This document shows, one piece after another, positions 1,120-55,396 of a stretch of 64,000 bases of DNA. Origin of the DNA: Escherichia phage vB_EcoM_G17; sequence record MK327931.1. One strand, 5' to 3'. The notes beneath the pieces are model-generated. The model worked only from the letters and a program-made list of their open reading frames with translations. It searched no databases and had not been told where the DNA came from. Each line of letters starts with the position of its first letter. Position 1 is the first letter of the stretch. A program made the position numbers and the translations under genes.

Positions 1120-1815
1120 TTACACCCACTCTTCTACACCACCGCGACGCTTAACTAAGTACTTGCCTTCTTCGTTACGTGGACCAAGAATAATACCATC
1201 AATGAAACCATGTTCACCATATTCAAGTGCTTCTTCTGCATTTAACCACAAATCGCGGTCAGCATCTTTTAGTAATTGTTCATGTGATACACCTACAGCT
1301 TCTGCAATTTCTTTGGTCAACAATGTATTCAGTGCATCAGAATGTTGTAGGGAAATCTTCTGGTCTGTAATTAGACCTTGTGTACCAGAACTTACTTGGT
1401 GACACATGAAGTATGAGCGTTTACCACCTAAACGGAAACCTTTAGTCCCAATAACAGATTGTGTATAGCAACCCATTGATGCTGCATAGCCCATTACTAC
1501 AGTGCGAATTGGCGAAATACAAGACTTAGCAACATCTGCAATACCCAAACCTGCGTGTACTGAACCACCCGGTGAACTAATGTAGAATGTAATAGGGGAA
1601 TCACCTTGTGAGTCTAACCATACCAATTGTTGTTTGATGATATGTGCCATTTGATCATTGAAATCAGTATCAAGGAAAATGATACGGTCTTGCATCATAC
1701 GAGATGCTAGATCATATGTACGTTCTGAACCATTAACTTTCTCAACTACGTAAGGAATAGAAATGTTACGTACTTCGCCATTAGCATAACCACCAAACAT
1801 GAATTGTTCAACCAT
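1120..1815 (-). CDS. clpP: ClpP-family serine protease homologue
   Basis: 231 aa; ClpP/S14-like core: 'ISSPGGSVHAGLGI' (GGS nucleophile region), 'MGYAASMGC', 'MCHQVSSG' (His region). Confidence 0.7.
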   Translation of the reverse strand: MVEQFMFGGYANGEVRNISIPYVVEKVNGSERTYDLASRMMQDRIIFLDTDFNDQMAHIIKQQLVWLDSQGDSPITFYISSPGGSVHAGLGIADVAKSCISPIRTVVMGYAASMGCYTQSVIGTKGFRLGGKRSYFMCHQVSSGTQGLITDQKISLQHSDALNTLLTKEIAEAVGVSHEQLLKDADRDLWLNAEEALEYGEHGFIDGIILGPRNEEGKYLVKRRGGVEEWV

Positions 1816-1879: not shown

Positions 1880-2320
1880 CTATTTTACTGGAATATTTGA
1901 AAAGAAATCAGTCATCCAATACGCCGTCTCTTTGTTGAATAATACTGGATCAAACTTAAGTAACTCAACATGACTTGTATCATACACGCTTGTATCGGTA
2001 ATGTCAAACAAAGTTTTAGTACTGAATAGTGGATTACTCACTAGAAAGTAGTAATCAGCAGTAGTGCTAATGTCATCATAAAACACACCGTCATACCATC
2101 CATCATCATATACATAAACAGAATCGTCATGAAGATAGTAAACTTCTATATGTAAACTCAAGTTCTTCATGGTTTCAATCATTTTTGCCGTATGAGGATT
2201 TAACTTATTGACATTTTCAAACACATAAGAGTGTTTTTTATTCATATCAACAAATGAAAATATTCGTACTGAACGTATATTCATATTACTCCAAATAAAC
2301 AAGTGAATTAATGAAATCAT
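1880..2320 (-). CDS. hypothetical protein (146 aa)
   Basis: Minus-strand ORF; no motif recognised. Confidence 0.5.
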   Translation of the reverse strand: MISLIHLFIWSNMNIRSVRIFSFVDMNKKHSYVFENVNKLNPHTAKMIETMKNLSLHIEVYYLHDDSVYVYDDGWYDGVFYDDISTTADYYFLVSNPLFSTKTLFDITDTSVYDTSHVELLKFDPVLFNKETAYWMTDFFSNIPVK

Positions 2321-2669
2321 ATTTCAATTTATCATCAACATAATTCAAATCAACTTTAATCATCGGAGCATGGGAACGTATAGACAGTGTTTCCATAAAG
2401 TACTGATTAAGTTTGTATGTATGGAAAAGATGAATATCTCGTTTCAATACCACCATTACTTCCCCGAACAGATCACAGAGTTCAACTTCAGTGTTAGTTG
2501 GGTCAAACCCATAACGATTCTTTAATGTACGTGGTTCTTTATTTCGATAATAATGCACAGCTTTATTACTATTCACTAACAAGTGATGATATGCATTACT
2601 ATAAACTGAGCAAATAACTCGGCTTGGATAATTGGTATATTCTGGCAGTTCAAAATAAATTAATGACAC
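2286..2669 (-). CDS. hypothetical protein (127 aa)
   Basis: Minus-strand ORF; overlaps the downstream gene by 35 nt, so start/stop context is uncertain. Confidence 0.45.
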   Translation of the reverse strand: MSLIYFELPEYTNYPSRVICSVYSNAYHHLLVNSNKAVHYYRNKEPRTLKNRYGFDPTNTEVELCDLFGEVMVVLKRDIHLFHTYKLNQYFMETLSIRSHAPMIKVDLNYVDDKLKYDFINSLVYLE

Positions 2670-2681
2670 AATATCCTCTCA

Positions 2682-3485
2682 TTAAATTTCAAATACAAAT
2701 TTAGGATTGTAATCAAAATTCTCACAAGCTCCACTGTATGATTCATAGCCTCGTGGATTACAAATGATACGTGTCTTACCAATGTGGTAGTCAAAACTAC
2801 TATGAACATGACCATGAATCCAAACATCAGCACCCAAATCTTCAATGTACTGATCCATATCGGAACAGTAACAACCATTCAGTGAATCATTTTTATATTT
2901 TGGTGAAACACTTTGATAACTTGGTGCGTGATGGGTAACCACGATGACCTTGAAATCATTATCATGCATAAAGCGAACTGTGTCAATAGAATTTTTGATA
3001 AATTGTTTATCTTTGTGATGCATAAACTCAGTATCATCTGGTGTCAGTTTCTTACGCCAAGGCTCTGATGTTGTTCCATGACGGATATGTTTGTAATCGT
3101 TCATCTTCAGACGAGCATCAAACTTCGTCAAAGAATTACCTTTATCGAAGTCTGTCCACAGAGTACTACCAACAAGCAGTACTCCGTCCAGCCATACAAA
3201 TTTGTTTTGCAAAAAGATGAAATTTGGAATCTCATCTTGCATATCGGACAGTACTTTATGCGTTTTGTGGATATTGGAACCATAATATTCATGATTGCCA
3301 GGAACCAGTACTACATTCTTAAACTGCTTACATAGTGATTCTATACCAGTACGGTAACGACTGCGTTTAACTTCATCGAAGTCCCCAGCAATAATCAGTA
3401 CTGTATCACTGTAATCACCACTATGGAGGTAATCAGTCCCACCGTGTACATCAGATGTTACAACAAATTTCATAATCACCTCCAA
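2682..3485 (-). CDS. calcineurin-like metallophosphoesterase
   Basis: Metallophosphatase motifs 'SDVHG', 'IAGDFDE', 'PGNHEYY', 'VVTHHAP', 'HGHVHSS'. Likely true start is the second Met (MKFVV, 3473). Confidence 0.7.
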   Translation of the reverse strand: MEVIMKFVVTSDVHGGTDYLHSGDYSDTVLIIAGDFDEVKRSRYRTGIESLCKQFKNVVLVPGNHEYYGSNIHKTHKVLSDMQDEIPNFIFLQNKFVWLDGVLLVGSTLWTDFDKGNSLTKFDARLKMNDYKHIRHGTTSEPWRKKLTPDDTEFMHHKDKQFIKNSIDTVRFMHDNDFKVIVVTHHAPSYQSVSPKYKNDSLNGCYCSDMDQYIEDLGADVWIHGHVHSSFDYHIGKTRIICNPRGYESYSGACENFDYNPKFVFEI

Positions 3486-3492
3486 TAAATGG

Positions 3493-4911
3493 TTAACCTA
3501 ATGCGTCAATAATACTGTTTGAGAACACTTCAACAGCACTCTCACGAATTTCTAAGATACGAGTATAATCATCACAAGTGTTTTTGTCAAATCTAAATTC
3601 AATAAACACTGGTAAGAACAGTGATGGCTCACCAGTACGCTTGTCGAATACAATGTCATTACACTCAACTGTAACCACTTTACCAATAAGTTCTTGCATT
3701 CTTTCCCAAATGGTTTTAAATGTCCATTCAGCATCTTTCTCTTTGATACCAGTACCCACATTAACTTTCAATGAACCACAAGCACTTTCCAGTTGTAAAG
3801 AACCTAGGCTTCCTTTACGTTTACCTTCACCTTCATTGAAACCAACAATACGTAAGTCCAGTTGCATTTTCAATTTCATTTTCAACTGCTTAGGTGAAGT
3901 ATGAGATTTCCAGATACCATCTTCACATTTCAGTACTGAACCCTCTTCACCTTCGTTCATTAGTTCACTATTGTACTCAAATGCTTCTTTGATGTTTAGA
4001 ACTTTACGGAATCCAACCATACGAACAAAATCACTATTGAGTTCGTTAATTGCATCTACTAAGATCTCGCGACGTTCTTTACGTTTTACATCCCATACAC
4101 CTTCACAAAATGCATCATATGGAACAACATCCCATAGAACGAATACAGTACGCATTGCTTCATTCTGACTGATGCTATCTTTACCAGCTTTCTGAATTAT
4201 ACCGTTGCCAGTAGTGCGTGGGAGAATGGTTTCTCCATCATTGTCCAGTACTACACCTTCCCCCATAAAGACTACACCACTACTAAAACGTTCATCTTTA
4301 CTTTGGATGATGTGAGCAAGACCTGCCATCTCACCATCACGACAACCCAGGAAGTCGTATAGTTTACCATTACGGGATGTAGAAGTTAATGAACCATTAA
4401 TGACAACGTGGTTTAAGTACTGACCATCCATTTTCACTTCTGATATAGCGTAACCATAATCTTTGAAGTTGATGTTCTTTGCAGTCTTTTTGTCAATCAA
4501 AGAACAACGCATATATGGTTCGTCTTTGATGAATCCTTTACCAAACACATCATTGCAGTTCTTCTCCTGAATACCACAATCAAGGTTCTTAGTGAGCATT
4601 CTACGTAGAACTTCCTGATCATCTTCAGATACAGAACCCAGTACTGAAGCAATGAAATCACGCCCCGCATTTCCTGTCACATCACGCTTGTAAATGCATT
4701 CTAGCTTATCAATTGCTTCATCTAACGTCATATGTTGATATACGTCATCAGCGGCAGGGAGCTTCTTATAGCCACTAACGATAGAAGGGTCTAGAGTATA
4801 TTTCAGTACTTTTTGTAAAGTTACATTATCTTTATTTTGTTCAAGAATAGCCTTTTTGCCCAGAGTACTGCTAGTATTTTTAATGCTTTCAAGAATTGCT
4901 AAAATGCTCAT
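3493..4911 (-). CDS. 30: ATP-dependent DNA ligase (T4 gp30-like)
   Basis: 472 aa; N-terminus 'ILAILESIKNTSSTLGKKAILEQNKDN' parallels T4 gp30 as recalled; adenylation motif 'KMDGQ'; 'EGVVLD'-type motif. Confidence 0.85.
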   Translation of the reverse strand: MSILAILESIKNTSSTLGKKAILEQNKDNVTLQKVLKYTLDPSIVSGYKKLPAADDVYQHMTLDEAIDKLECIYKRDVTGNAGRDFIASVLGSVSEDDQEVLRRMLTKNLDCGIQEKNCNDVFGKGFIKDEPYMRCSLIDKKTAKNINFKDYGYAISEVKMDGQYLNHVVINGSLTSTSRNGKLYDFLGCRDGEMAGLAHIIQSKDERFSSGVVFMGEGVVLDNDGETILPRTTGNGIIQKAGKDSISQNEAMRTVFVLWDVVPYDAFCEGVWDVKRKERREILVDAINELNSDFVRMVGFRKVLNIKEAFEYNSELMNEGEEGSVLKCEDGIWKSHTSPKQLKMKLKMQLDLRIVGFNEGEGKRKGSLGSLQLESACGSLKVNVGTGIKEKDAEWTFKTIWERMQELIGKVVTVECNDIVFDKRTGEPSLFLPVFIEFRFDKNTCDDYTRILEIRESAVEVFSNSIIDALG

Positions 4912-4922
4912 TGTATATTCCT

Positions 4923-6125
4923 TTATAGATAATACTTTCCAATATAAAGTGGATTACTAATTGATAGTTGAACGTGACATGGTTTGTCTTGGTAGTAACG
5001 AGTGCTTGATGTTTTGCGTTCATTTGGTGGGAAGAATGGGGAACGATAGCCATTCCATGTACTAAATGATGAGTGTTCATTAATATCAACATCCATTACC
5101 ATAATCCCATTATCATCAATTTGAACTGGATATGCACTAAAGCGTTCAAATTTATCATTATAATGGATATTATAATCTCCACTACGCCCATAATAACTAC
5201 GCGTTGTATTATTACTTACACCAAAAAATACGCGATATGTTTGTTCATTATCTTTAGTCATAAATGGTACGTTCTCGTTGAAACGTCCATTATTCATAAG
5301 ATCATCAACATTTATTTCTTCGTATTTAATTTTAAGGTCTTTTGCTTTAAATGATTTATTGTGTACCAGTACTGGAATGTTAGATTCACCTAATGGGTTA
5401 TGTCTGTTTGTTCTATAGCTTTGCCAAAATTCATTAGCAAGTTTAATTTCTTCATCTGCCGTAGTCTTCTTATTCAAGAGTGCACGAGGTTCAAGATTGT
5501 AATTATCCAAACGTTGATTCAATGCATAAGTTCCACGAGTACTGTTAAAAAGTAAATGATAAACTGAACTTTTGTCGGGATATGCAAATTCTTTAGTTTT
5601 CTTTATACAAATTGCATGTACTTTACCGCAGTAATAGTAATCTTCTTTAAGATAAGTGAAACCATCACCAACTTTAAGACCTGCTACAGTTTCTTTTTGT
5701 TGTTCTTTTTTATTTTCTTTTTCAACTAACTTAGCAAACGTTTTTGTTTTACCATTAATTAATTCTAAGTTATTGTTGAAAAACATTGGGTCTACAAAAA
5801 CACCTTTGATTATATCGTTATTGATAATTAAATCATTCATGTTTTTTGCACTAATCATAAATTCAAATCCTTCTGGGTGACGGATCGTGAAATATGTTTC
5901 TCGTGCATGAGTTGTTAATTTATCAACTACACAAAATCCCGTAGTTGGAACGTTGTCAATATATAACGATGGAAGATTGTTCTTCTTTGCCCAGTACTCT
6001 GCTCTCTCTTTCTTTGTTTCAAACGCTTTTGTATGTGATTTTGTTGCATCGATAATAAAACCATCAACTTGGTTGTGGTTTACATAGGAACGTGCAACAA
6101 ATAACTTCTCTGGAAAATCCATCAA
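4923..6125 (-). CDS. hypothetical protein (400 aa), immediately upstream of ligase
   Basis: Long minus-strand ORF; no catalytic motif recognised. Confidence 0.55.
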   Translation of the reverse strand: MMDFPEKLFVARSYVNHNQVDGFIIDATKSHTKAFETKKERAEYWAKKNNLPSLYIDNVPTTGFCVVDKLTTHARETYFTIRHPEGFEFMISAKNMNDLIINNDIIKGVFVDPMFFNNNLELINGKTKTFAKLVEKENKKEQQKETVAGLKVGDGFTYLKEDYYYCGKVHAICIKKTKEFAYPDKSSVYHLLFNSTRGTYALNQRLDNYNLEPRALLNKKTTADEEIKLANEFWQSYRTNRHNPLGESNIPVLVHNKSFKAKDLKIKYEEINVDDLMNNGRFNENVPFMTKDNEQTYRVFFGVSNNTTRSYYGRSGDYNIHYNDKFERFSAYPVQIDDNGIMVMDVDINEHSSFSTWNGYRSPFFPPNERKTSSTRYYQDKPCHVQLSISNPLYIGKYYL

Positions 6126-6541
6126 ATTGTCCTCATTGTGCTGATTGCTTTTAATGTGTCAAACAATGCACCATATTTTACTTGCATTAGTTGATCACCA
6201 GCAGGAAGATTCATACGCATAACAGCCATGTCTTCAATCATTTCAGACGTACACAGTACTGCTACACAGGTAATAGCATCATTCAATCCAGCTTCATTGA
6301 ATTTGGCAAACGGAACTTTTCCCTGTTTGCTAAGGTTGTTATAATAAGAATTTAACTTATCATGTCCACCAGCATTTAGTACTACAATAGTTTCGTGTTC
6401 ATAGTACCATTCATCAATAATAGTACTGAAAGCAGTACCTTCATATTCTTTAATTAGTTTAACACCAGCATGGAATGCTTGAATACCAGCTTGGACACCT
6501 TGGCAGTACATATTAGTTAAGCAATACAATTTCATTTCCAT
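6122..6541 (-). CDS. hypothetical protein; weak resemblance to Pth2-type peptidyl-tRNA hydrolase
   Basis: 139 aa; 'GVQAGIQAFHAGV' and 'ETIVVLN...EAGLNDAITCVAV' loosely recall Pth2 motifs. Tentative. Confidence 0.4.
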   Translation of the reverse strand: MEMKLYCLTNMYCQGVQAGIQAFHAGVKLIKEYEGTAFSTIIDEWYYEHETIVVLNAGGHDKLNSYYNNLSKQGKVPFAKFNEAGLNDAITCVAVLCTSEMIEDMAVMRMNLPAGDQLMQVKYGALFDTLKAISTMRTI

Positions 6542-6759
6542 ACCTCTTGTTTTTCTACGTAGCCTTTCCCATCACAGTGTGGACAAGCATAAAAGCTGCG
6601 GTAATCTTCTGACGGTACTTGTTGTGTTCCATTACATGTAGGACATACTTTACGTGCACCAGAAATAATACGTTCATGGTGTTCAGCTTGTTTAGCTGAA
6701 TCAAAAATACGACCATCTTCAGTTTGGTATTTTTCTACCATAACTTGAATTACTTTCAT
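6532..6759 (-). CDS. small Cys-rich (zinc-finger-like) protein
   Basis: 75 aa; two CxxC pairs 'CPTCNG...CPHCDGKG' (DnaJ-type CxxCxG spacing). Confidence 0.5.
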   Translation of the reverse strand: MKVIQVMVEKYQTEDGRIFDSAKQAEHHERIISGARKVCPTCNGTQQVPSEDYRSFYACPHCDGKGYVEKQEVWK

Positions 6760-6769
6760 TTCTATTTCC

Positions 6770-7039
6770 TTATAAAAATGTTAAATCTTCAGTACTTAAT
6801 TGTGATAATTTACCATCATATTCTATTTCAACATATACATCTTGGTCATAAACAGCAACTACACGTTTAATAACTCCAACCTTCACGACATTCTTTTTGT
6901 AGTTGAACTCAACTGAACAACCAATAAGTTTATTTGATAGAATCTCACGTATTTGATTTGCATGGTCTTTTAGGATAGAATTAATAGATTTTTTCATAAT
7001 ATATCTATCATTCAAATATTTTTTAACTACATCATGCAT
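6770..7039 (-). CDS. small hypothetical protein (KYxGKxV-like family)
   Basis: 89 aa; 'NKLIGCSVEF' fits the motif seen in several ~90-aa paralogues. Confidence 0.45.
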   Translation of the reverse strand: MHDVVKKYLNDRYIMKKSINSILKDHANQIREILSNKLIGCSVEFNYKKNVVKVGVIKRVVAVYDQDVYVEIEYDGKLSQLSTEDLTFL

Positions 7040-7044
7040 AATTA

Positions 7045-7803
7045 TTACCTTTTGAAACGATTGAATGAGTACTCATCTTTTTCTTTACGTAAGTATCTCA
7101 TCCCACCACTTTGTGGAGTAGCGAGAGTTAAGTCACCCGTCAAGAACTGACTATCAATCCAAATGCGATTACCGTAAATGAGTGGGTCTGTAACTGCTGT
7201 ATGTCCACTAAAGACACAATGCACTCCATCTAACTTAGGTGCATAATATGTATTATTAGTTCTACAATAATCGAATGTTTTTCTATCCCACAAGCACTTA
7301 TCAATTATATCAGCACTAAGTGATTTTGTCCCATTAACAAATCGTTCCCATGTTGTATATTCCAACGGAACTCCAGCATGAACTAACCCAATCTTCAATC
7401 CTCGGTGATTGATTTGGATAATCATAGGGAGATCCTTTAAGTACTGACGAAAGAATTGAATGCCTGTTCCTCCAACTTCATCAAGGAATTTATCACCACC
7501 ATTACTTATCCAACAATGATACCAATCTCGAAGTGTTTCCGAATCAACGCACATCATCTCATGATTACCCGCAATCATGTAACGATTTTCTCCGAACAAA
7601 AATTCAAAAAGGAGCTTTGAATTTTGTTCTCCACGGTCGATAATATCACCTACACTGAAAACATAATCATTGTGTGTAATACCAAATTCTTTCACTGTAG
7701 CATCCCATAGTTTACCATTACCATGCAAATCACCTACAATGTATAAATCTTTATCATCAGGTACAGTTACTTCTAAGAAGTGTTTCATTATTACTCCAAC
7801 CAT
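7045..7803 (-). CDS. PPP-family Ser/Thr phosphatase-like metallophosphoesterase
   Basis: Motifs 'GDLHGN', 'GDIIDRGEQ', 'GNHEMM' (GDxHG / GDxxDRG / GNHE). Confidence 0.75.
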   Translation of the reverse strand: MVGVIMKHFLEVTVPDDKDLYIVGDLHGNGKLWDATVKEFGITHNDYVFSVGDIIDRGEQNSKLLFEFLFGENRYMIAGNHEMMCVDSETLRDWYHCWISNGGDKFLDEVGGTGIQFFRQYLKDLPMIIQINHRGLKIGLVHAGVPLEYTTWERFVNGTKSLSADIIDKCLWDRKTFDYCRTNNTYYAPKLDGVHCVFSGHTAVTDPLIYGNRIWIDSQFLTGDLTLATPQSGGMRYLRKEKDEYSFNRFKR

Positions 7804-8042
7804 ATAATATTAGTGTGTTTAGTAACTTGTGTTCCAGCAAAAGAACCATCTTTAAGATAAGTATTAATTTTAAAACGCCATTCACCACCACTAATATACA
7901 TATCAGTAATAATATACTTTCCATACCCTCTGGAGTTTATTAATCGTACTTCTTGACCAATATATTTTGGCTTCAGATCATTTATAAAATCATCAGCCAA
8001 AGACATAAGATATCGCAAATGTGATAAGTCAGTGTTGAACAT
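7791..8042 (-). CDS. small hypothetical protein (KYxGKxV-like family)
   Basis: 83 aa; 'KPKYIGQEVRL'. Confidence 0.45.
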   Translation of the reverse strand: MFNTDLSHLRYLMSLADDFINDLKPKYIGQEVRLINSRGYGKYIITDMYISGGEWRFKINTYLKDGSFAGTQVTKHTNIIWLE

Positions 8043-8257
8043 TATTTCTTTCTCTTATATTTGTTAATAATATCTTGGGTAAGTGAAATAAAAATATATA
8101 CTAATGTTACAGGCCAAATAATAGCCATCAGTGCTGCTGTTTGGAGATTCATGATAATCATGATTTCATCTTTAAAACAACCCCAATTAAGTACTAGAAA
8201 GTTGGTTATAAATGTAACAAATGCTACAAAACCATATATTGCAAAAAATGTTATCAT
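8042..8257 (-). CDS. small membrane protein
   Basis: 71 aa; two hydrophobic helices. Confidence 0.45.
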   Translation of the reverse strand: MITFFAIYGFVAFVTFITNFLVLNWGCFKDEIMIIMNLQTAALMAIIWPVTLVYIFISLTQDIINKYKRKK

Positions 8258-8259
8258 AA

Positions 8260-8589
8260 TTATTCCTCATCATCCACTAAAACAAGATAATCCAAACTTA
8301 ACTCGGTATCTATGTAACAATCACAATTCAAGTACTCAATTTCAGCACCTATAGTTCTCCCATTCTTAAATATCTCAATGATTTTCATTCTAGTATTGGG
8401 ATTAATGTGTTCAATGTCGTATTCGTATTCAGGGTCAATATACTCACTTGTCATACGTTTGATGTATTGTTCCGAATATCGTACAGTTTTACCTATAAGA
8501 TCATTACTCAACGTCTGATAAAAATCATCTTGAATTTTGAATAATGACCTATAAAAAATATTATGTTGAATTAGTGGTTTCATTGACAT
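8260..8589 (-). CDS. small hypothetical protein (KYxGKxV-like family)
   Basis: 109 aa; 'NDLIGKTVRY'. Confidence 0.45.
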   Translation of the reverse strand: MSMKPLIQHNIFYRSLFKIQDDFYQTLSNDLIGKTVRYSEQYIKRMTSEYIDPEYEYDIEHINPNTRMKIIEIFKNGRTIGAEIEYLNCDCYIDTELSLDYLVLVDDEE

Positions 8590-11222: not shown

Positions 11223-12155
11223 TTAGAAATTTCCTTCAGCCACTTGGAAAACTTTCAACCCAAGTAGCTTACGCCACATGAATACAACTTGATCGCGGTC
11301 ATCATATACCTTTTTAACATCGTAATGATCAACCACATTTTTCATGTACAGGTCGAATTTTACAACATCATCAGGACGTTTATCATCGATATCTCGCATA
11401 AACAATGCATCGTAAGGAACACCCCAATTCTTAAGCCACTGTTCGGTATCAGCACGACACCCTTCAGTACGCCCACTCATGACGATAATCTTGCGTTTAT
11501 GAAAAACTGCTTCAGCGATAATAGACAAAATAACTTCTTCATCAGGTGTATCCTGAAGAACAGTACTTTCATCGTAAGGATTACGACCCCATTTATGAGC
11601 AAGAGTTCCATCGATATCAACGATGATAGCAGCTTCGCGTGAATTACCATAGTAACCAATGTGTAATGCCTTACTATAATAGTACGTATCTGCCATTGTG
11701 TCAATGATATCATCTTGTACTGAACGCTCACGCTGGAGGTTATATTTCTTACAAAGTTTTACGAACTCTTTAATCTTAAAGAATTCATGAACATCTGCAC
11801 CACGGTCTTCATTAGGTACAAAATCATCATAGAAGTTCTTTTCTTTGTAATCATAACCATTATCTTTAGCCCATACTTTCCAGAGATTACGGAAATGTTG
11901 TTTAAGGTTTGTATCGGATATGATGATGTTCCAACCATTCTCTGCTGCTGAATTTGCTGCACTGAACTGTAAATTAGTTACGTACTGCTCATTAGCATCG
12001 TTGAATTTGTAAGCATCATGTGACCCAGCCATAGATTCACGAATATCATCACGGTTGATGTTGATAGTCTTGGATTTGGCATTTTTAATTTCTTGAACTG
12101 CCCATGTGGTTTTACCACACCCAGGTAATCCAACTGTTAGTGTAATAGTTGGCAT
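11223..12155 (-). CDS. pseT: polynucleotide 5'-kinase / 3'-phosphatase (T4 PseT-like)
   Basis: 310 aa; N-terminal P-loop 'GLPGCGKTT'; C-terminal HAD motif 'IVDIDGTLA'. Confidence 0.85.
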   Translation of the reverse strand: MPTITLTVGLPGCGKTTWAVQEIKNAKSKTININRDDIRESMAGSHDAYKFNDANEQYVTNLQFSAANSAAENGWNIIISDTNLKQHFRNLWKVWAKDNGYDYKEKNFYDDFVPNEDRGADVHEFFKIKEFVKLCKKYNLQRERSVQDDIIDTMADTYYYSKALHIGYYGNSREAAIIVDIDGTLAHKWGRNPYDESTVLQDTPDEEVILSIIAEAVFHKRKIIVMSGRTEGCRADTEQWLKNWGVPYDALFMRDIDDKRPDDVVKFDLYMKNVVDHYDVKKVYDDRDQVVFMWRKLLGLKVFQVAEGNF

Positions 12156-13251: not shown

Positions 13252-14394
13252 CTAAAAATCCTTTAGTACAATTTTCATGTATTTTATAAGAGTCTCTTTG
13301 TAATCAACTTTCTTATTGTTATACATTGCAAAGGCCAAGCCCTGACGATTCAGTTCATTAGTTAAACACTCCTGAACCTTCATTGCGAATTCCTTTCGCT
13401 CCAAGTGCTTGTGTTCCTTGACGAAGCTTTCTACTTCATCTTGTAATGCATTATAGCACGAAAATACCAATTGTTCCATTCTTAATATCTTTTGCATAGC
13501 ATATTCATCAGTACTGAACAATTGTTTTAAATCATCACTTGAACCATTTAATACTGCTTCATATAAATGAGAATCAATAATAATACTATCTTTTGTAAGA
13601 TGTAATGAACTGTACCAGTCAGTCTTTATTTTACACATTGTCCCATTATTTAGGATGCACACAAAACCCTCAATATCAAGCATTTTATGAACTTCCTCCA
13701 CGCTTTCACGGAAGGTATTTCGTACCGGAAAAGTGTGATGAATATCTTTTCCAGTCATATTAGTACTGTACTGTGCAAGACATGGAAACTTATCACGTAG
13801 TGCTTTACCACATAGCAACTCACCACTCACACGATGACGAACGTTCAGTACAAACAGTTGTTCTACCTGATATGGTAATACAATTCGGTACTCTGGGCTT
13901 GTATACTCCATATTAACTGTGTAACCTAAACGTTCCGCTTCGTCGATGTACTGATACAAATTCTGGTTCTCGTTAATAAGTCGAGTACTGTTAATCGCAT
14001 GGTCAGAATACAATGCAGTATGTGATTTACAACGAATCTCACCATCATTATCACGGTAAGTACTGATAATCGAACCATCCAACTTAGGCATCACTACCGC
14101 AATGTCATCGCATGTGGTGTTAGCAGGGAACATTGTAGCAGGATTCTCGTAAGCATTGAAGAACTTTTTCATTGTACGTGCTGCACAACGTATCATTTCA
14201 CCTTCTTCATCAATTTCCCACATAGAGCCACGGGTTTCCAACGCATTTGGTTGCATGAAATCAGTGTATGATGCTAGACGATAACTGAATACACGATACG
14301 TGCCACCAGCAGGACTTTTATGATCCACATAAAAGAATGCATCGTTTGTATTACATAAGTGCATTAAATCTTCATATATTTGCAAAAGGGTCAT
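13252..14394 (-). CDS. rnlA: RNA ligase 1 (T4 RnlA-like)
   Basis: 380 aa; N-terminus 'FFYVDHKSPAGGTYRVFSYRLASYTDF...ALETRGSMWE' parallels T4 RnlA as recalled; 'KLDGS' adenylation motif; 'KIKTDWYSSLHLTK'. Confidence 0.85.
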   Translation of the reverse strand: MTLLQIYEDLMHLCNTNDAFFYVDHKSPAGGTYRVFSYRLASYTDFMQPNALETRGSMWEIDEEGEMIRCAARTMKKFFNAYENPATMFPANTTCDDIAVVMPKLDGSIISTYRDNDGEIRCKSHTALYSDHAINSTRLINENQNLYQYIDEAERLGYTVNMEYTSPEYRIVLPYQVEQLFVLNVRHRVSGELLCGKALRDKFPCLAQYSTNMTGKDIHHTFPVRNTFRESVEEVHKMLDIEGFVCILNNGTMCKIKTDWYSSLHLTKDSIIIDSHLYEAVLNGSSDDLKQLFSTDEYAMQKILRMEQLVFSCYNALQDEVESFVKEHKHLERKEFAMKVQECLTNELNRQGLAFAMYNNKKVDYKETLIKYMKIVLKDF

Positions 14395-18342: not shown

Positions 18343-18535
18343 GAACACGCTCACAATTAAGGCAATAAATGCACTCAATGTCAGGTCGCCATGATTTATC
18401 AAAATCTTTGTGTTGTTCTTCGGTGTATTCCGCATCATCATTAATAGGGAAGAAATCACCAGCACCAGTCGCCCAGTCTGAATCTAAACGGAAACGAGCT
18501 AATTGAGTACTGTTACAATATGGACATTTATTCAA
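18335..18535 (-). CDS. small zinc-ribbon protein
   Basis: 66 aa; 'CPYCNS ... CIYCLNC' (CxxC x2). Confidence 0.5.
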   Translation of the reverse strand: MNKCPYCNSTQLARFRLDSDWATGAGDFFPINDDAEYTEEQHKDFDKSWRPDIECIYCLNCERVHD

Positions 18536-18812
18536 AATTTATTCCTTCTAACTGATATACGTTTAATGAAAATGACCCACTATTATTATCGCATCTGAAA
18601 CACAGTGTTAAAGAACCATTAAAACTAACTACATCCGTACAGATACATTTTTCACCATTGGATATGATAGATTTTCCTATATATAAATCTCTTACTATAG
18701 TACGGTAATGTTGCCATAAAAAATAATACACACTTTCATAGTACTCATCTTTTACATATGATAAGTATAAGAATTTATAAAATACTTGTATTTCCTTTAA
18801 GTTGTTTTTCAT
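18528..18812 (-). CDS. small protein, IQFTYK-type family
   Basis: 94 aa; 'KEIQVFYKFLYLSY'. Confidence 0.5.
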   Translation of the reverse strand: MKNNLKEIQVFYKFLYLSYVKDEYYESVYYFLWQHYRTIVRDLYIGKSIISNGEKCICTDVVSFNGSLTLCFRCDNNSGSFSLNVYQLEGINFE

Positions 18813-19086
18813 TCTTCAATTCCAGTAAATTTACACCAATCCAATCAACATCACTATCAGTACTTAATTCCAATCGTAGCTTACCGCTATGACTAACAAT
18901 ATCGCGGAATTTGTATATTTTATTATCACGAACTATACACAAATCATGGTAATATTCATGTAATTCATCCAAAAACTTTATCCATACCGAACGATAGATT
19001 TCACTGTAGAGATATTCTCCAGCATCAACCGTAGCGTATTGGATATACAAAAATTTGTATGTGAATTGTATATCATTTAATAACAT
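18775..19086 (-). CDS. small protein, IQFTYK-type family
   Basis: 103 aa; 'LNDIQFTYKFLYIQY'. Confidence 0.5.
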   Translation of the reverse strand: MLLNDIQFTYKFLYIQYATVDAGEYLYSEIYRSVWIKFLDELHEYYHDLCIVRDNKIYKFRDIVSHSGKLRLELSTDSDVDWIGVNLLELKNEKQLKGNTSIL

Positions 19087-19096
19087 ATGTAACCTC

Positions 19097-19408
19097 TTAT
19101 AAATTCACCAACTTCACAACTTTAATCTCGATAAATCCCCTATCGGTTATTTCCTGAAATTGAACATGGATTATACCATTATATGATTGCACACCATAGA
19201 AATCGAATTTATCATTTCCATCGATAAAAGTACTGTAATTCTTTTTTATATATTCACCTACTGAATCTAAGTACTCAATATATAAATCAATAAATGGTTG
19301 TTCTTTGGATCGGTTATGTGAACCTATGTTGTTACTAACAAGGTATACATCATACAAATCATATAGGATCTTATAAGTGAATTGTATATCATTTAAATTT
19401 AATCCCAA
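19097..19408 (-). CDS. small protein, IQFTYK-type family
   Basis: 103 aa; 'LNDIQFTYKILYDLY'. Confidence 0.5.
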   Translation of the reverse strand: MGLNLNDIQFTYKILYDLYDVYLVSNNIGSHNRSKEQPFIDLYIEYLDSVGEYIKKNYSTFIDGNDKFDFYGVQSYNGIIHVQFQEITDRGFIEIKVVKLVNL

Positions 19409-19665
19409 GGGAATATCTCCAACGGAATACTGGTAAATCCAAAATCAGTGTAGTACTGAACCTCAACTTTACCATCACGTCTAATGATTATATCAGAAAA
19501 TTCTGCATGGTCATCACCAATAATAACAGTACTGAATTTTTTTTTAATCTTACCACGAATCGTATGAATCATTTCAGTGCATGTGTCTTCTAGACTAGGG
19601 CTATCATTGTCGTGTGCTAAATCTCGAATAATCTTGTATGTTAGTAGGAAATCTTTATAATTCAT
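19399..19665 (-). CDS. small protein, IQFTYK-type family
   Basis: 88 aa; 'KDFLLTYKIIRDL'. Confidence 0.5.
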   Translation of the reverse strand: MNYKDFLLTYKIIRDLAHDNDSPSLEDTCTEMIHTIRGKIKKKFSTVIIGDDHAEFSDIIIRRDGKVEVQYYTDFGFTSIPLEIFPWD

Positions 19666-19937
19666 ATGTCCACCAAATCTATACTATATCTTTCATTAGT
19701 ATTACTATCTATAAATGATAGTACTAATTTACCACCAAAACTATTAACTTGTTCTATCTTCTGTTTTTTACCACGAATGATTATCTCACTATTAACAAAA
19801 TATTCACGTATCATTATTAAGTGATTAATCCAGATAGTATGAGTGAATGTGTTTTCTCGTATTGTATTGAGATATCTTCCATTGTGATGTAAATCAAACA
19901 AAACACTGTATGTATATTGTAGAACTTTATAATTCAT
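19662..19937 (-). CDS. small protein, IQFTYK-type family
   Basis: 91 aa; 'KVLQYTYSVLFDL'. Confidence 0.5.
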   Translation of the reverse strand: MNYKVLQYTYSVLFDLHHNGRYLNTIRENTFTHTIWINHLIMIREYFVNSEIIIRGKKQKIEQVNSFGGKLVLSFIDSNTNERYSIDLVDI

Positions 19938-40409: not shown

Positions 40410-40960
40410 AATAGTTCCTTATACATATGATGTACTTTACAAATCTCATTATAGTATTTCATATCAATGTCATTTGTATTAAAAACGGAAACAGACAATA
40501 CTGCTAACTTATCAATTAAGTAATTATTATCGGCGTACTGTTTTAACTTATTGAACATATAGATGCATTTTATACTTAATTCATCATGCAACACACTGTT
40601 CTGAAAAATATTCTCTTCAGTATTAGGAGATAAGTAATCTTCAATTATATACGATAAACTACTATCGCAATCTTTATAGATTGAAATTGATGGATGTAAT
40701 GTGTCATACATTACACTAAACAGATCACCGTCATATGTGGATATTAAACTATTATTGGAAACAGTAGGATGATAATATTTCAGTACTGAAAACTTTGAAC
40801 AATCAGTGCAGTAAAAATGATCCATCCCTCGACGACTTTCGTATGAGAATAGTTTACTTGTATATTCAATCCCTTTGGTGCGACGGATTGTTTCATGCAT
40901 TTCTGCACATTGCATTAAAATTACCATACGTTCAAACGCAAGATCTAAATCATCGTACAT
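40400..40960 (-). CDS. FQxS-family paralogue
   Basis: 186 aa; 'EENIFQNSVLH'. Confidence 0.55.
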   Translation of the reverse strand: MYDDLDLAFERMVILMQCAEMHETIRRTKGIEYTSKLFSYESRRGMDHFYCTDCSKFSVLKYYHPTVSNNSLISTYDGDLFSVMYDTLHPSISIYKDCDSSLSYIIEDYLSPNTEENIFQNSVLHDELSIKCIYMFNKLKQYADNNYLIDKLAVLSVSVFNTNDIDMKYYNEICKVHHMYKELLCQ

Positions 40961-41141
40961 AACGGATATCCTTCTTCAACGAATTAATATATTCCAAAAT
41001 AACTTGTTCCTGATATTGGGTTCCCAAGTACATCAGTACTTTCAACTCTTTGAATTCAGTACTATATGAGTCTGTTTGCATCATTCTAGTAGAATATATA
41101 TTGAATAGTTTAGCAATATCATCTTGGTCTATTATTTTCAT
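40950..41141 (-). CDS. LGTNYQE-family small protein (copy embedded in the FQxS array)
   Basis: 63 aa; 'MYLGTQYQEQ'. Confidence 0.5.
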   Translation of the reverse strand: MKIIDQDDIAKLFNIYSTRMMQTDSYSTEFKELKVLMYLGTQYQEQVILEYINSLKKDIRYVR

Positions 41142-41337
41142 TAACCCTCTTCTGTATTAGTTCCTGTAAGTGCTGAATATAACCCTTCATTGCAACATCC
41201 TGTTTGTTAGAGCCAACGAAGAACAAGAGCTTAAAGTCATGGTAATCCATTTTTGGTTTAGTAGTGAACCATATGTCCCACACTGCACTCACAGTTCTCA
41301 TGTATTCAATTCGATTAAATGTTTTTGAATACTTCAT
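41119..41337 (-). CDS. LGTNYQE-family small protein (divergent, embedded copy)
   Basis: 72 aa; 'FFVGSNKQDV'. Confidence 0.45.
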   Translation of the reverse strand: MKYSKTFNRIEYMRTVSAVWDIWFTTKPKMDYHDFKLLFFVGSNKQDVAMKGYIQHLQELIQKRVNENNRPR

Positions 41338-53582: not shown

Positions 53583-53975
53583 CTAATCTTTCCATTTAAT
53601 AGGATACTCCTTTCCTTGTACTATATATGACAAAATCCATCCGTAATGAATAGGATGATTTTTGTCTGAATCAGGAATAAAATATAAAGCTGTACTTGGA
53701 TTATGACTGAATAAATCTTTATTGTCAAATGTAAAATGTGATAATATAATTTTCCTTGCACTTGGACGAATAACATTCTTAACACTGAACTCTGAACCTT
53801 TGTATTTCTCCGATAATTCAAATAATGCATCTGTAATTAAATCACTGATCTCTTGGATTACAAAATTCTGATAAAATGCATTAATCTCTTTTAACTCTGT
53901 ATACAATTCACTTCTGGTATTCAAAAGAAATATTACTTTTTTAAGATCCTGAACTATTTCTGGATTCATATTCAT
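53583..53975 (-). CDS. hypothetical protein (130 aa)
   Basis: Minus-strand ORF. Confidence 0.45.
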   Translation of the reverse strand: MNMNPEIVQDLKKVIFLLNTRSELYTELKEINAFYQNFVIQEISDLITDALFELSEKYKGSEFSVKNVIRPSARKIILSHFTFDNKDLFSHNPSTALYFIPDSDKNHPIHYGWILSYIVQGKEYPIKWKD

Positions 53976-54207
53976 TTATCTCATTCTGTAACTTAAGCAT
54001 CAAAATTTGCATATTAATTTTTTGTAAAAGGTGCTTGATAAATTTCTGTGCCATTTCTTCTTGTTCTTTTGTACCAAGATAAAATAACAGATTAAATTCT
54101 GATAATCGCAAAGAAAAATCTTCATCACCACCCTTTAAACAAAAATCCCTGTACTTTGTAGCGTACAAATATTGGTTTACCTTTTTATAATACCCTGTGT
54201 TTTGCAT
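53941..54207 (-). CDS. LGTNYQE-family small protein
   Basis: 88 aa; 'FYLGTKEQEE'. Confidence 0.5.
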   Translation of the reverse strand: MQNTGYYKKVNQYLYATKYRDFCLKGGDEDFSLRLSEFNLLFYLGTKEQEEMAQKFIKHLLQKINMQILMLKLQNEINEYESRNSSGS

Positions 54208-54395
54208 ACTATCTCCGTTCGCAACGAATTTATATAATAATGAACAAATTGTTCTTGTGAACGTGTTCCAAGAAAAATAAACATATCAAACTCTGTTGTT
54301 TTTAAATTCAATGCATCTTTTGTAAAATTCCTGTTGAATTCCCTGTACTTTTGGGTCTTCCATTCTTGATTAATTGTCTTGTATATCGATTTCAA
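54177..54395 (-). CDS. LGTNYQE-family small protein
   Basis: 72 aa; 'IFLGTRSQEQ'. Confidence 0.5.
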   Translation of the reverse strand: MKSIYKTINQEWKTQKYREFNRNFTKDALNLKTTEFDMFIFLGTRSQEQFVHYYINSLRTEIVCKTQGIIKR

Positions 54396-54696
54396 TGATT
54401 CTCCCTGATGTACCTTGTATTAGCTTATCATACATATCGAGCATCACTTTTTGAATACTAATTAGTACTGGCATCGTGCAAATATCAATGTCGTATACTA
54501 AGCTGTACTGGAATAATTCATCTTCCTGCATTTGTACTAAATTAGGTAAAGGATAATTGTCTGCCTCTTCATCCTGGTACTTGAAATGCATAACACCATC
54601 CTTTTTGTACAAAAGAATGTCAATATCACCTAACTCATCAGCATAACCAAAAATACATATACTCGATGTTTTTGCTATATTAAATTTCATCTCCAC
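54370..54696 (-). CDS. FQxS-family paralogue
   Basis: 108 aa; 'MQEDELFQYSLVYD'. Confidence 0.55.
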   Translation of the reverse strand: MEMKFNIAKTSSICIFGYADELGDIDILLYKKDGVMHFKYQDEEADNYPLPNLVQMQEDELFQYSLVYDIDICTMPVLISIQKVMLDMYDKLIQGTSGRIIEIDIQDN

Positions 54697-54932
54697 CTCT
54701 CTCCGTCAGCACAAGAGTACTGGTACGTTGTCGTTAGGGTAGGGACCATGTTTGTAATGGGCATATTATTAACAATAACGGTAACAGGCATAAGAATCGT
54801 CTCTACTCTACTCTGTCCTGTCCTTGTACAATTCATCTTCTGCATTTCATCTGAATCCATGAAATACAATACAAATGGTGCAATCCCAAGAACAATACAC
54901 AAGACGATAAGGAAATTTAAAAAATTTAACAT
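54687..54932 (-). CDS. small membrane protein
   Basis: 81 aa; N-terminal hydrophobic helix 'FLNFLIVLCIVLGIAPFVLYF'. Confidence 0.45.
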   Translation of the reverse strand: MLNFLNFLIVLCIVLGIAPFVLYFMDSDEMQKMNCTRTGQSRVETILMPVTVIVNNMPITNMVPTLTTTYQYSCADGERWR

Positions 54933-54991
54933 AATTTTTACCCTATGATTAACGTTAGTGTACTATATCAGTAATGAAAAGTACTGTCAAG

Positions 54992-55396
54992 CTAGTATTG
55001 CACTGTTCTAATGAAAGTACCTTTACTCATGGATTTAAGCTTATGAACCTCTTCCTGCATACCCTTAATTAACCCTAAAGGTATAGGTAAATCATGTACT
55101 AAGCTGTACTGAAAGTATTCTTCTTCAGATAAAGTACTAACATCTGGAACGCCAATTTTAGTTATATAATCTTGATGTGTTGACCAATAAATTATATCTT
55201 CAGTACTATTGTACTCCCCATATACTGAACAATATTGATGAATATCTTTCCTGTACCCTTGAGCAATAAAGAACTTATCTAATGCATTACCAGCATTAAT
55301 AGAATTTACTTCGATTGTCACAGTACTTGAGCTTGTATAACTCTTAATATTATCAGTACTCTTAATACTCAACGATGTGTTCTTCATAATCACCAT
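54992..55396 (-). CDS. FQxS-family paralogue
   Basis: 134 aa; 'LSEEEYFQYSLVHD'. Confidence 0.55.
   Translation of the reverse strand: MVIMKNTSLSIKSTDNIKSYTSSSTVTIEVNSINAGNALDKFFIAQGYRKDIHQYCSVYGEYNSTEDIIYWSTHQDYITKIGVPDVSTLSEEEYFQYSLVHDLPIPLGLIKGMQEEVHKLKSMSKGTFIRTVQY

What the first reader, a model, noticed from the sequence alone, without database searches (positions are those of the whole stretch)
2682..7803. Two distinct calcineurin-type metallophosphoesterases flanking the ligase
Gene 2682..3485 (SDVHG, GDFDE, GNHEYY, GHVHSS) and gene 7045..7803 (GDLHGN, GDIIDRGEQ, GNHEMM; lambda-phosphatase/ApaH-like) both carry complete metal-binding motifs. Such enzymes can act as protein phosphatases or as phosphodiesterases on (cyclic or linear oligo-)nucleotides. 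In a counter-defence setting they could degrade nucleotide second messengers or reverse host kinase signalling.
Basis: inference. Interest (0 to 1): 0.5.

Follow-up and report, generated by a model that had tools for sequence, protein, structure and literature searches.

The report
Two unrelated phosphoesterases in jumbo phage
A giant E. coli phage carries two intact metal-dependent phosphoesterase genes near its DNA ligase: one is an ordinary lambda-type protein phosphatase, the other a phosphodiesterase from a very large uncharacterised family; both are already annotated in public records and nothing found here ties them to anti-defence.

Summary
Both ORFs exist on the minus strand with all metal-binding motifs intact and invariant across homologues. 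The true starts are ATG 3473 and ATG 7788, not 3485 and 7803. The window is 100% identical over the 6.5-kb stretch compared to the published jumbo coliphage Sharanji (Asteriusvirus), where the genes are already annotated as gp499 "calcineurin-like phosphoesterase" and gp505 "serine/threonine phosphatase".

- **Gene 1** is a phosphodiesterase-type metallophosphoesterase, not a PPP phosphatase. It belongs to a huge single-domain family with no characterised member: about 9,800 clusters at E<=1e-30, in large phages and in at least 596 mostly betaproteobacterial genomes. Its nearest solved relative, by three methods, is M. tuberculosis phosphopantetheinyl hydrolase PptH, at only 18% identity.

The two genes are not a functional pair. 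They co-occur only in RaK2-like phages, as part of a vertically inherited block. Gene 1's recurrent neighbours are ClpP, DNA ligase, dCMP deaminase and MazG, which are nucleotide/DNA metabolism genes. No known anti-defence family matched. The substrates remain unknown. Ordinary overall; the PptH lead is the one mildly interesting point.

The parts
2682..3473 (-). Gene 1 (identical to Sharanji gp499), 263 aa. A phosphodiesterase-type binuclear metallophosphoesterase of the phrog_1649 family with a helical cap insert at about residues 104-170.
3478..3483 (-). Shine-Dalgarno GGAGGT for gene 1, 4 nt upstream of ATG 3473.
   Evidence: Sequence read.
3444..3452 (-). Gene 1 motif I, D8-x-H10 (metal ligands).
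   Evidence: Invariant in 59 homologues.
3381..3386 (-). Gene 1 motif II, G30-D31 (bridging Asp).
   Evidence: Invariant.
3288..3299 (-). Gene 1 motif III, G59-N60-H61-E62.
   Evidence: G59, N60 and H61 are invariant; E62 is at least 90% conserved.
2928..2933 (-). Gene 1 motif IV, H181-H182.
   Evidence: H181 is invariant and H182 at least 90% conserved.
2802..2813 (-). Gene 1 motif V, G221-H222-x-H224.
   Evidence: Invariant.
7045..7788 (-). Gene 2 (identical to Sharanji gp505 'pphA'), 247 aa. A lambda-phosphatase/NinI-type PPP-family Mn-dependent phosphatase.
7723..7731 (-). Gene 2 motif GDxHG (D20, H22).
   Evidence: Invariant; aligned to lambda phosphatase D20/H22.
7633..7647 (-). Gene 2 motif GDxxDRG (D48, D51, R52).
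   Evidence: Invariant; aligned to lambda phosphatase D49/R53.
7561..7566 (-). Gene 2 motif GNHE (N75, H76).
   Evidence: Invariant.
7378..7380 (-). Gene 2 H137, equivalent to lambda phosphatase H139.
   Evidence: Invariant; alignment.
7201..7203 (-). Gene 2 H196, equivalent to lambda phosphatase H186.
   Evidence: Invariant; alignment.
3493..4911 (-). ATP-dependent DNA ligase (gp500), immediately upstream of gene 1.
   Evidence: Pfam DNA_ligase_A_M 6.8e-14 and phrog_114 1.8e-119.
4923..6122 (-). Conserved 399-aa protein of unknown function (gp501, phrog_14061). It is part of the syntenic block.
   Evidence: No Pfam, NCBIfam or PDB match.
6122..6535 (-). PTH2-like hydrolase (gp502), part of the syntenic block.
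   Evidence: Pfam PTH2 2.1e-5 and phrog_3668 1.6e-45.
6532..6759 (-). 75-aa zinc-ribbon (CxxC...CxxC) protein (gp503).
   Evidence: Sub-threshold DnaJ_CXXCXGXG and Anti-TRAP hits, plus phrog_12574.
1120..1815 (-). ClpP-family protease. This is the most frequent neighbour of gene 1 homologues across phages.
   Evidence: Pfam 4.2e-41. Present in 21 of 80 IMG/VR loci.
11223..12155 (-). T4-type polynucleotide kinase/HAD 3'-phosphatase (Pnkp). Context only: it already supplies RNA end-healing.
   Evidence: Pfam HAD_PNKP 8.6e-44 and AAA_33; phrog_505.
13252..14394 (-). T4 Rnl1-type RNA ligase. Context only.
   Evidence: Pfam RNA_lig_T4_1 and T4_Rnl1_C; annotation.

Best explanation
These are two evolutionarily independent binuclear metallophosphoesterases. 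They sit in one long, same-strand block of non-structural genes that RaK2-like jumbo phages inherit vertically. The block runs: NinI-like phosphatase, small genes, PTH2-like hydrolase, 399-aa protein, DNA ligase, metallophosphoesterase, ClpP.

Gene 2 is a lambda-phosphatase (NinI) orthologue-type enzyme, a Mn2+-dependent phosphomonoesterase. Like lambda phosphatase, it most likely strips phosphate from phospho-Ser/Thr/Tyr/His proteins of the infected cell. The fold and active site are shown here; the substrate is inferred.

Gene 1 is a soluble phosphodiesterase-type enzyme. It has a helical cap over a complete two-metal site and belongs to a very large uncharacterised family shared by large phages and Betaproteobacteria. 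I infer that it hydrolyses a small phosphodiester or a blocked nucleic-acid end as part of the phage's nucleotide/DNA-metabolism module (ligase, dCMP deaminase, MazG, FEN). I do not think it acts together with gene 2 or as a dedicated immune-signal degrader. Fold class, motif integrity, distribution and neighbourhood are shown; the substrate is inference.
For: - Identity: the 6.5-kb stretch compared (window 2000-8500) is 100% identical to Escherichia phage Sharanji, with the same gene calls.
- Gene 1: all five motifs are invariant and the model has pLDDT 96. The top structural neighbours are all diesterases: PptH 23.4, MPPED2 17.8, Lmo2642 16.8, Mre11 16, Rv0805 14.9 and GpdQ 14.5. PPP phosphatases score only about 8. 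Foldseek agrees.
- Family size: 25,822 cluster representatives at E<=1e-3 and 9,841 at E<=1e-30, all single-domain proteins of about 250-290 aa. The family is in 194 phage records, at least 586 IMG/VR contigs and at least 596 bacterial genomes.
- Neighbourhood, in 80 IMG/VR loci: ClpP in 21, ATP-dependent DNA ligase in 18-20, dCMP deaminase in 17, then Hsp20, IF-1, MazG and FEN. A ligase lies within 10 kb in 13 of 40 loci that have full flanks, and in 7 of 16 lineages defined at 50% identity. It is seen with three different ligase types.
- Block synteny is kept in Pectobacterium phage CBB/GAP32 at 53% identity.
- Not a pair: a NinI-like gene lies near gene 1 homologues only in the 3 RaK2-like loci.
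Against: - No substrate has been tested for either protein or, as far as the searched literature shows, for any member of gene 1's family.
- The physiological role of lambda phosphatase itself is unknown.
- The ligase association is only about 3-fold over a rough random expectation. It is confounded by shared ancestry and by the general clustering of replication genes in large phages.
- The closest characterised relative of gene 1 (PptH) acts on a protein-linked cofactor, not on a nucleotide.
- The wider region does hold bona fide counter-defence genes, namely T4-type Pnkp and Rnl1, so an anti-defence role cannot be excluded from context.
Confidence: 0.55

Rival explanations
1. Counter-defence enzymes. 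Gene 1 degrades cyclic or linear oligonucleotide immune messengers such as those of CBASS, Pycsar or type III CRISPR. Gene 2 reverses phosphorylation by host defence kinases.
For: - Gene 1 has a diesterase-type fold with an intact active site.
- Distant relatives such as Rv0805, MPPED2 and Lmo2642 hydrolyse cyclic nucleotides.
- Iyer et al. 2021 predicted calcineurin-like phosphodiesterases of jumbo phages as counter-nucleotide enzymes (PMC7824862).
- Counter-defence genes Pnkp and Rnl1 lie 4-10 kb away.
- Phosphorylation is now known to matter in phage-host conflict (T7 kinase paper listed).
Against: - There is no similarity to any validated anti-defence phosphodiesterase. Literature searches found no calcineurin-type anti-CBASS or anti-Pycsar enzyme.
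- The family Iyer et al. named (T5 A1 orthologues) is not gene 1's family (hhalign probability 0.7%).
- Gene 1's homologues are common stand-alone genes in betaproteobacterial genomes with no conserved neighbour.
- Neighbours in phages are metabolic or replication genes.
- NinI-like phosphatases are near-ubiquitous in unrelated phages and no defence target is known.
Confidence: 0.15
2. Nucleic-acid end-healing partners of the ligases. One or both enzymes remove 3'-phosphate, 2',3'-cyclic phosphate or other 3' blocks so that the DNA ligase (gene 1) or the Rnl1 RNA ligase (gene 2) can seal breaks, as the metallophosphoesterase domain of Clostridium thermocellum Pnkp does.
For: - Gene 1 is 19 nt downstream of the DNA ligase.
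- A ligase lies within 10 kb in 13 of 40 fully flanked loci, and with three ligase types.
- From established knowledge (Keppetipola & Shuman 2007, not retrieved here), lambda phosphatase has 2',3'-cyclic phosphodiesterase activity.
- Iyer et al. note calcineurin-like domains in this role in a few jumbo phages.
Against: - The phage already encodes a complete T4-type Pnkp (kinase plus HAD 3'-phosphatase) and Rnl1.
- NinI-like genes occur in more than 1,300 phages, including lambdoid phages, which are not known to encode an RNA ligase (my own knowledge, not tested here).
- Most gene 1 homologues (60 of 80 loci) have no ligase within reach, and bacterial homologues have no ligase neighbour.
Confidence: 0.15
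3. Gene 1 is a PptH-type phosphopantetheinyl hydrolase. It strips 4'-phosphopantetheine from host holo-acyl carrier protein and so shuts down or rewires host lipid and carrier-protein metabolism.
For: - hhalign gives 97.5% probability.
- PptH is active on E. coli ACP in vitro (PMC8557913).
Against: - Identity is only 18%, and sequence similarity is detectable only over the N-terminal 66 columns.
- PptH's Arg-rich C-terminal extension (REWRRRKPY...) is absent from the phage family.
- No carrier-protein or PPTase genes recur nearby.
- No biological rationale is established, and the role of PptH itself is unknown.
Confidence: 0.07
4. Gene 1 is a DNase that degrades host DNA, like mycobacteriophage A10ZJ24 Gp48 or T5 A1.
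For: - A phage metallophosphoesterase with this role exists (PMC12287305).
Against: - hhalign probability is about 1% to Bxb1 gp47 (the cluster-A metallophosphoesterase type) and 0.7% to T5 A1.
- Gene 1 lacks the Mre11 capping/DNA-binding domain, being a single domain of 263 aa.
- Bacterial chromosomes carry stand-alone homologues with no obvious immunity partner.
Confidence: 0.05

Closest known systems
Bacteriophage lambda Ser/Thr protein phosphatase (NinI, lambda PP; PDB 1g5b), and T5.035
   Different: It is only 25% identical to lambda PP, with about 25 extra residues, mostly in the helical region and the C-terminus. It sits in a jumbo-phage non-structural gene block rather than the lambdoid nin region. 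No activity has been measured.
E. coli PrpA/PrpB and ApaH
   Different: Scores are far below the equivalog cut-offs: 63 against 326, 54 against 332, and 32 against 176. Gene 2 is therefore not an orthologue of any of them.
M. tuberculosis phosphopantetheinyl hydrolase PptH (Rv2795c, PDB 6unc)
   Different: Identity is 18% and TM only about 0.66. There is no detectable sequence similarity beyond residue 70 or so. PptH has a basic C-terminal extension that the phage family lacks. PptH is described as restricted to mycobacteria and sits next to the PPTase gene pptT, whereas gene 1's family is in large phages and Betaproteobacteria with no carrier-protein context.
Class III cyclic-nucleotide/glycerophospho-diesterases (CpdA/Icc, Rv0805, GpdQ) and MPPED2
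   Different: The NCBIfam CpdA score is 15.5 against a cut-off of 225. The cap architecture is different, so gene 1 is not an orthologue.
Mycobacteriophage cluster-A metallophosphoesterase (A10ZJ24 Gp48, Bxb1 gp47) and T5 A1
   Same: These are phage-encoded members of the calcineurin-like superfamily. Gp48 has a demonstrated role in evading host immunity (PMC12287305).
   Different: There is no relationship beyond the superfamily. hhalign probabilities are 0.6-1% for both window genes against Bxb1 gp47, and 0.7% for gene 1 against T5 A1.

Membership tests
Calcineurin-like metallophosphoesterase superfamily (PF00149) | Five motifs supplying the binuclear metal ligands: DxH, GD, GNH[DE], H, GHxH/GH | tested here: met
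   Both genes exceed the Pfam gathering score (50.7 and 43.5 bits against 21.5). All ligand residues are present and invariant in their families.
PPP family, lambda-phosphatase/NinI type (gene 2) | GDxHG, GDxVDRG and GNHE signature, plus the C-terminal His/Arg/His (lambda PP H139, R162, H186) | tested here: met
   The motifs are GDLHG, GDIIDRG and GNHE. H137, R169 and H196 align with the lambda PP residues; H137 and H196 are invariant and R169 is at least 90% conserved in 20 homologues.
PPP family, lambda-phosphatase/NinI type (gene 2) | Lambda-PP fold | tested here: met
PPP family, lambda-phosphatase/NinI type (gene 2) | Mn2+-dependent phosphoprotein phosphatase activity | not testable with these tools
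   This needs recombinant enzyme assays.
PPP family (gene 1) | GDxVDRG motif and PPP fold | tested here: not met
PrpA/PrpB and ApaH equivalogs (gene 2) | NCBIfam whole-protein score above the curated cut-off | tested here: not met
   63.1 against 326, 53.6 against 332, and 32.1 against 176 bits.
CpdA/Icc 3',5'-cAMP phosphodiesterase (gene 1) | NCBIfam equivalog score above the cut-off | tested here: not met
PptH-type phosphopantetheinyl hydrolases (gene 1) | Closest structural and sequence relationship to PptH, including the cap | tested here: inconclusive
PptH-type phosphopantetheinyl hydrolases (gene 1) | Genomic linkage to a phosphopantetheinyl transferase or carrier protein | tested here: not met
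   Mycobacterial pptH is followed by the remainder of the pptH-pptT region and truB. No such neighbour recurs in 80 phage loci or 80 bacterial loci of gene 1's family.
PptH-type phosphopantetheinyl hydrolases (gene 1) | Hydrolysis of holo-ACP to apo-ACP | not testable with these tools
   This needs a biochemical assay.
T5 A1 orthologues (the calcineurin-like 'counter-nucleotide' phosphodiesterases of Iyer et al. 2021) | Detectable homology to T5 A1 | tested here: not met
   hhalign probability 0.65%.
Mycobacteriophage cluster-A metallophosphoesterase (Gp48 / Bxb1 gp47) | Detectable homology beyond the superfamily motifs | tested here: not met
   hhalign probability 0.97% for gene 1 and 0.57% for gene 2.
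Known defence or anti-defence protein families | Full-length match to a PADLOC model | tested here: not met
   Gene 1 has only a partial hit (residues 4-115) to candidate PDC-S10, and gene 2 has none. No dedicated anti-defence library was available; literature searches found no calcineurin-type anti-CBASS or anti-Pycsar enzyme.

The most novel reading that the evidence does not exclude
Gene 1 represents a very large, wholly uncharacterised branch of PptH-like phosphodiesterases: about 10,000 clusters at 50% identity, spread through large phages of many hosts and through Betaproteobacteria. Its real substrate could be something unexpected for a phage. One possibility is the 4'-phosphopantetheine arm of host acyl carrier protein, which would be a new way of shutting down host lipid synthesis. 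Another is a defence-related nucleotide messenger, which would make it the first calcineurin-type anti-signalling enzyme.
Probability: 0.12. Interest if true: 0.7.

Novelty: already known. Interest (0 to 1): 0.3.

Why it matters
As it stands, this confirms existing GenBank annotation of a published jumbo phage and adds a cleaner classification: a lambda-phosphatase type enzyme plus a PptH/MPPED2-like diesterase.

It would matter more if gene 1's family were characterised. The family is one of the more abundant single-domain enzyme families in large phages (at least 586 IMG/VR contigs, about 9,800 clusters at E<=1e-30), it has bacterial counterparts, and not one member has a known substrate.

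The physiological role of NinI/lambda phosphatase, a reagent used in many laboratories, is also still unknown. A jumbo-phage knockout with a phenotype would help with that long-standing gap.

Tried and rejected
1. **T5 A1 orthology for gene 1**, as implied by the jumbo-phage review: hhalign probability 0.65%. Rejected.
2. **Relationship to the mycobacteriophage immune-evasion metallophosphoesterase** (Bxb1 gp47 / Gp48 type): about 1% for both genes. Rejected.
3. **NAD link.** One uncultured phage has the gene 1 homologue directly upstream of NAD kinase, NMNAT-NUDIX and NAMPT, and CBB has an NMNAT about 5 kb away. Across 80 IMG/VR loci, however, NAD genes occur only in the 4 loci closest to the query (L011-L014, 48-68% identity). 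The NARP3 paper and the 'phage phosphatases versus aRES' preprint involve NadR/PnuC and a Macro-domain phosphatase, not metallophosphoesterases. Rejected as a general association.
4. **Conserved bacterial operon context for gene 1's family.** The best neighbour cluster was present in only 7 of 80 loci. Uninformative.
5. **Functions of the two conserved genes between the phosphoesterases** (399-aa protein and PTH2-like hydrolase): no PDB sequence match.
6. **Full-length PptH from the homologue search.** Only fragments were returned. The sequence was recovered indirectly from frameshifted mycobacterial contigs and the 6unc alignment.
7. **AFDB Foldseek** was unavailable. The PptH structure paper is not held.
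8. **Sigma-70 promoter scan.** The count did not exceed shuffled expectation (65 against 66.7). The only convincing minus-strand terminators nearby follow Pnkp (11219-11193) and ClpP (1110-1088). The block may therefore be one long transcription unit, but this is not established.
9. **Net charge as an argument for or against ACP binding.** Gene 1's family has a median pI of 5.8 and PptH 5.8. Uninformative.

Full report
**Where the window comes from.** The region 2000-8500 is 100.0% identical to Escherichia phage Sharanji (OR545507, Asteriusvirus, 350 kb). It is 95-99.9% identical to PBECO4, 121Q and about 20 other jumbo coliphages and Salmonella phages. In Sharanji the two genes are gp499 'calcineurin-like phosphoesterase' and gp505 'pphA serine/threonine-protein phosphatase 1'. 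Other records call them 'metallo-phosphoesterase' and 'NinI-like serine-threonine phosphatase'. The existence and general nature of both genes is therefore already in public annotation.

**Checking the observation.** Both ORFs are real and lie on the minus strand. Reading the upstream sequence moves both start codons.
- Gene 1 begins at ATG 3473, preceded by GGAGGT at 3483-3478.
- Gene 2 begins at ATG 7788, after GGAG at 7797-7794.
- These corrected starts match the GenBank calls.

- Gene 1 scores 4e-13 against Pfam Metallophos and 2.6e-72 against phrog_1649.
- Gene 2 scores 6.2e-11 against Pfam Metallophos and 6e-66 against phrog_246 'NinI-like'.
- In an alignment of 59 gene 1 homologues down to 35% identity, D8, H10, G30, D31, G59, N60, H61, H181, G221, H222 and H224 are invariant.
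- In 20 gene 2 homologues, D20, H22, D48, D51, R52, N75, H76, H137 and H196 are invariant.

'Flanking the ligase' is loose. Gene 1 is 19 nt downstream of the ligase stop codon. Gene 2 is 2.1 kb upstream, separated by four genes.

**Gene 2.**
- By sequence its best solved relative is lambda phosphatase 1g5b (E=2.8e-16). The alignment pairs every catalytic residue of lambda PP (D20, H22, D49, R53, N75, H76, H139, R162, H186) with an identical residue in gene 2.
- NCBIfam scores for PrpA, PrpB and ApaH are far below the equivalog cut-offs, so it is not an orthologue of those.
- tblastn finds homologues in 1,319 phage records: T5-like, rV5-like, lambdoid, Sf6 and many Vibrio phages. Gene 2 is 30% identical to T5.035.
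- Gene 2 is therefore an ordinary member of the most widespread phage phosphatase family. I found no paper giving that family a defined role in infection or anti-defence.

**Gene 1: fold class.** By sequence alone it has no close solved relative (6unc at E=0.046). The AlphaFold2 model is very confident (pLDDT 96.1, pTM 0.93).
- It is clearly ahead of aq_1956 (19.2), TT1561 (18.2), MPPED2 (17.8), Lmo2642 (16.8), Mre11 (about 16), Rv0805 (14.9) and GpdQ (14.5).
- PPP phosphatases reach only about 8.
- Foldseek gives the same order, with PptH at TM 0.64-0.68 and MPPED2 at 0.57.
- A family profile also hits PptH best (1.9e-8).

It is also not a CpdA/Icc orthologue (15.5 against 225 bits).

**Gene 1: testing the PptH link.** I recovered the authentic PptH sequence by stitching a frameshifted mycobacterial contig and aligning it to 6unc.
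- hhalign of the gene 1 family against PptH gives 97.5% probability, but only over the 66 N-terminal columns.
- Overall identity is 18-19%.
- PptH carries an Arg-rich C-terminal extension that the phage family lacks.
- Mycobacterial pptH lies in the pptH-pptT-truB region. No carrier-protein or transferase gene recurs near gene 1 homologues.

PptH is thus the nearest characterised relative and a lead for assays. Membership of a functional PptH family is not established.

**Distribution and context of the gene 1 family.** The family is very large.
- An exhaustive profile search returns 25,822 cluster representatives at E<=1e-3 and 9,841 at E<=1e-30. The best 150 are all single-domain proteins of about 250-290 aa.
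- It occurs in 194 annotated phage genomes, almost all large. These include RaK2-like phages, KVP40-like Vibrio phages, cyanomyoviruses, Rhizobium T4-like phages, Caulobacter and Brevundimonas jumbo phages and Bacillus phage G.
- It occurs in at least 586 IMG/VR contigs.
- It also occurs in at least 596 bacterial genomes, mostly Betaproteobacteria, as full-length matches of 30-37% identity on contigs of up to 3.5 Mb.

I called and clustered ORFs in 80 diverse IMG/VR loci.
- The recurrent neighbours are ClpP (21 loci), ATP-dependent DNA ligase (18-20), dCMP deaminase (17), and then Hsp20, IF-1, MazG, FEN and a P-loop kinase. Nearly all lie on the same strand.
- A ligase lies within 10 kb in 13 of 40 loci with full flanks, and in 7 of 16 lineages defined at 50% identity.
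- It appears with three different ligase types: the ATP-dependent ligase in Asteriusvirus and CBB, gp30 in Vibrio phage nt-1, and NAD-dependent LigA in an uncultured jumbo phage.
- That is roughly three times a naive expectation (20 kb out of 150-350 kb). It is confounded by ancestry and by the clustering of replication genes.
- In 80 bacterial loci no neighbour is conserved; the best cluster is in 7 loci.

**Are the two genes a unit?** No.
- The block NinI-like, PTH2-like, 399-aa protein, ligase, metallophosphoesterase, ClpP is syntenic in Pectobacterium phage CBB/GAP32 at about 53% identity. It is therefore old within RaK2-like phages.
- Outside that clade, gene 1 homologues have no NinI-like neighbour (3 of 80 loci, all RaK2-like).
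- T5 also places a NinI-like gene next to a second, small metallophosphoesterase (T5.034), with a protease nearby. T5.034 resembles gene 1 only at superfamily level (85% probability over the N-terminus).

**The counter-defence idea.** The neighbourhood does contain classic counter-defence genes: a T4-type Pnkp (11223-12155) and a T4 Rnl1-type RNA ligase (13252-14394). Iyer et al. 2021 had already proposed calcineurin-like phosphodiesterases of jumbo phages as counter-nucleotide enzymes and, in a few phages, as RNA-repair phosphatases (PMC7824862).

Several points argue against it.
- The family they named (T5 A1 orthologues) is unrelated to gene 1.
- The one experimentally supported phage metallophosphoesterase in immune evasion (mycobacteriophage Gp48, PMC12287305) is unrelated to both genes.
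- PADLOC gives only a partial hit to an uncharacterised candidate.
- Two recent NAD-centred anti-defence papers use other enzyme folds.
- The bacterial homologues have no conserved neighbours that would suggest defence islands.

The idea is not excluded. I give it about 0.15.

The most likely picture is two independent enzymes. One is a lambda-type protein phosphatase. The other is a PptH/MPPED2-like phosphodiesterase working in the phage's nucleotide/DNA-metabolism module. The substrates of both are inferred, not shown.

Both genes are already annotated in identical public records, so novelty is low. The only moderately interesting residue is that gene 1 belongs to a very abundant family with no characterised member, whose nearest known relative is, unexpectedly, a phosphopantetheinyl hydrolase.

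Noticed in passing
window 53941-62082 (plus 40950-41337): About 30 small paralogous genes (roughly 70-95 aa each) are packed head to tail on the minus strand, forming one BLAST-connected family. All those that fall within the Sharanji record are annotated 'hypothetical'. AT skew shifts sharply in the same stretch, to about -0.22 at 56-60 kb.
   Followed up: partly
window 31069-55706: A second paralogous family of 28 genes (about 110-190 aa) is scattered over 25 kb, again all on the minus strand and all hypothetical. A third family of 5 tandem paralogues lies at 18528-19937.
   Followed up: partly
window 1-64000: 153 of 158 non-overlapping ORFs are on the minus strand and there are no tRNA genes. 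Mapped onto Sharanji, the window would run past the end of the linear record (303631 + 64000 > 350079). The source record therefore starts elsewhere or is a different isolate.
   Followed up: no
window 4923-6122 and 6122-6535: A conserved 399-aa protein (phrog_14061) has no Pfam, NCBIfam or PDB match. Together with a PTH2-like (peptidyl-tRNA hydrolase 2 fold) protein, it sits between the phosphatase and the ligase. Both keep that position in Pectobacterium phage CBB/GAP32.
   Followed up: partly
window 11223-12155 and 13252-14394: This is a complete T4-type tRNA healing-and-sealing pair: Pnkp with kinase and HAD phosphatase domains, and an Rnl1 RNA ligase with the tRNA-specific C-terminal domain. 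Sharanji annotates the Pnkp as 'zeta toxin', which looks like a mis-annotation.
   Followed up: partly
L004 8001-15000 (IMG metagenome contig Ga0565165_003900917): In one uncultured large phage, the gene 1 homologue is followed directly by NAD kinase, an R2K ATP-grasp protein, an Endonuclease_NS, NMNAT-NUDIX, NT5C and NAMPT. This is an NAD-salvage cluster. The linkage is not general across the family.
   Followed up: yes
L110, L111, L167 (Methylotenera / Gallionella genomes): Some bacterial homologues of gene 1 lie among small phage-like genes. These include DEDDh exonucleases, HAD-like proteins and a Cys-based phosphatase with an HCxxGxxRS motif, which hints at prophage or island locations in those genomes.
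   Followed up: no
L171 16916-18300 (phage T5): T5 also encodes two adjacent metallophosphoesterases: T5.034 (173 aa) and the NinI-like T5.035. A protease gene (T5.042) lies 3.7 kb away. This loosely parallels the arrangement in the window.
   Followed up: partly
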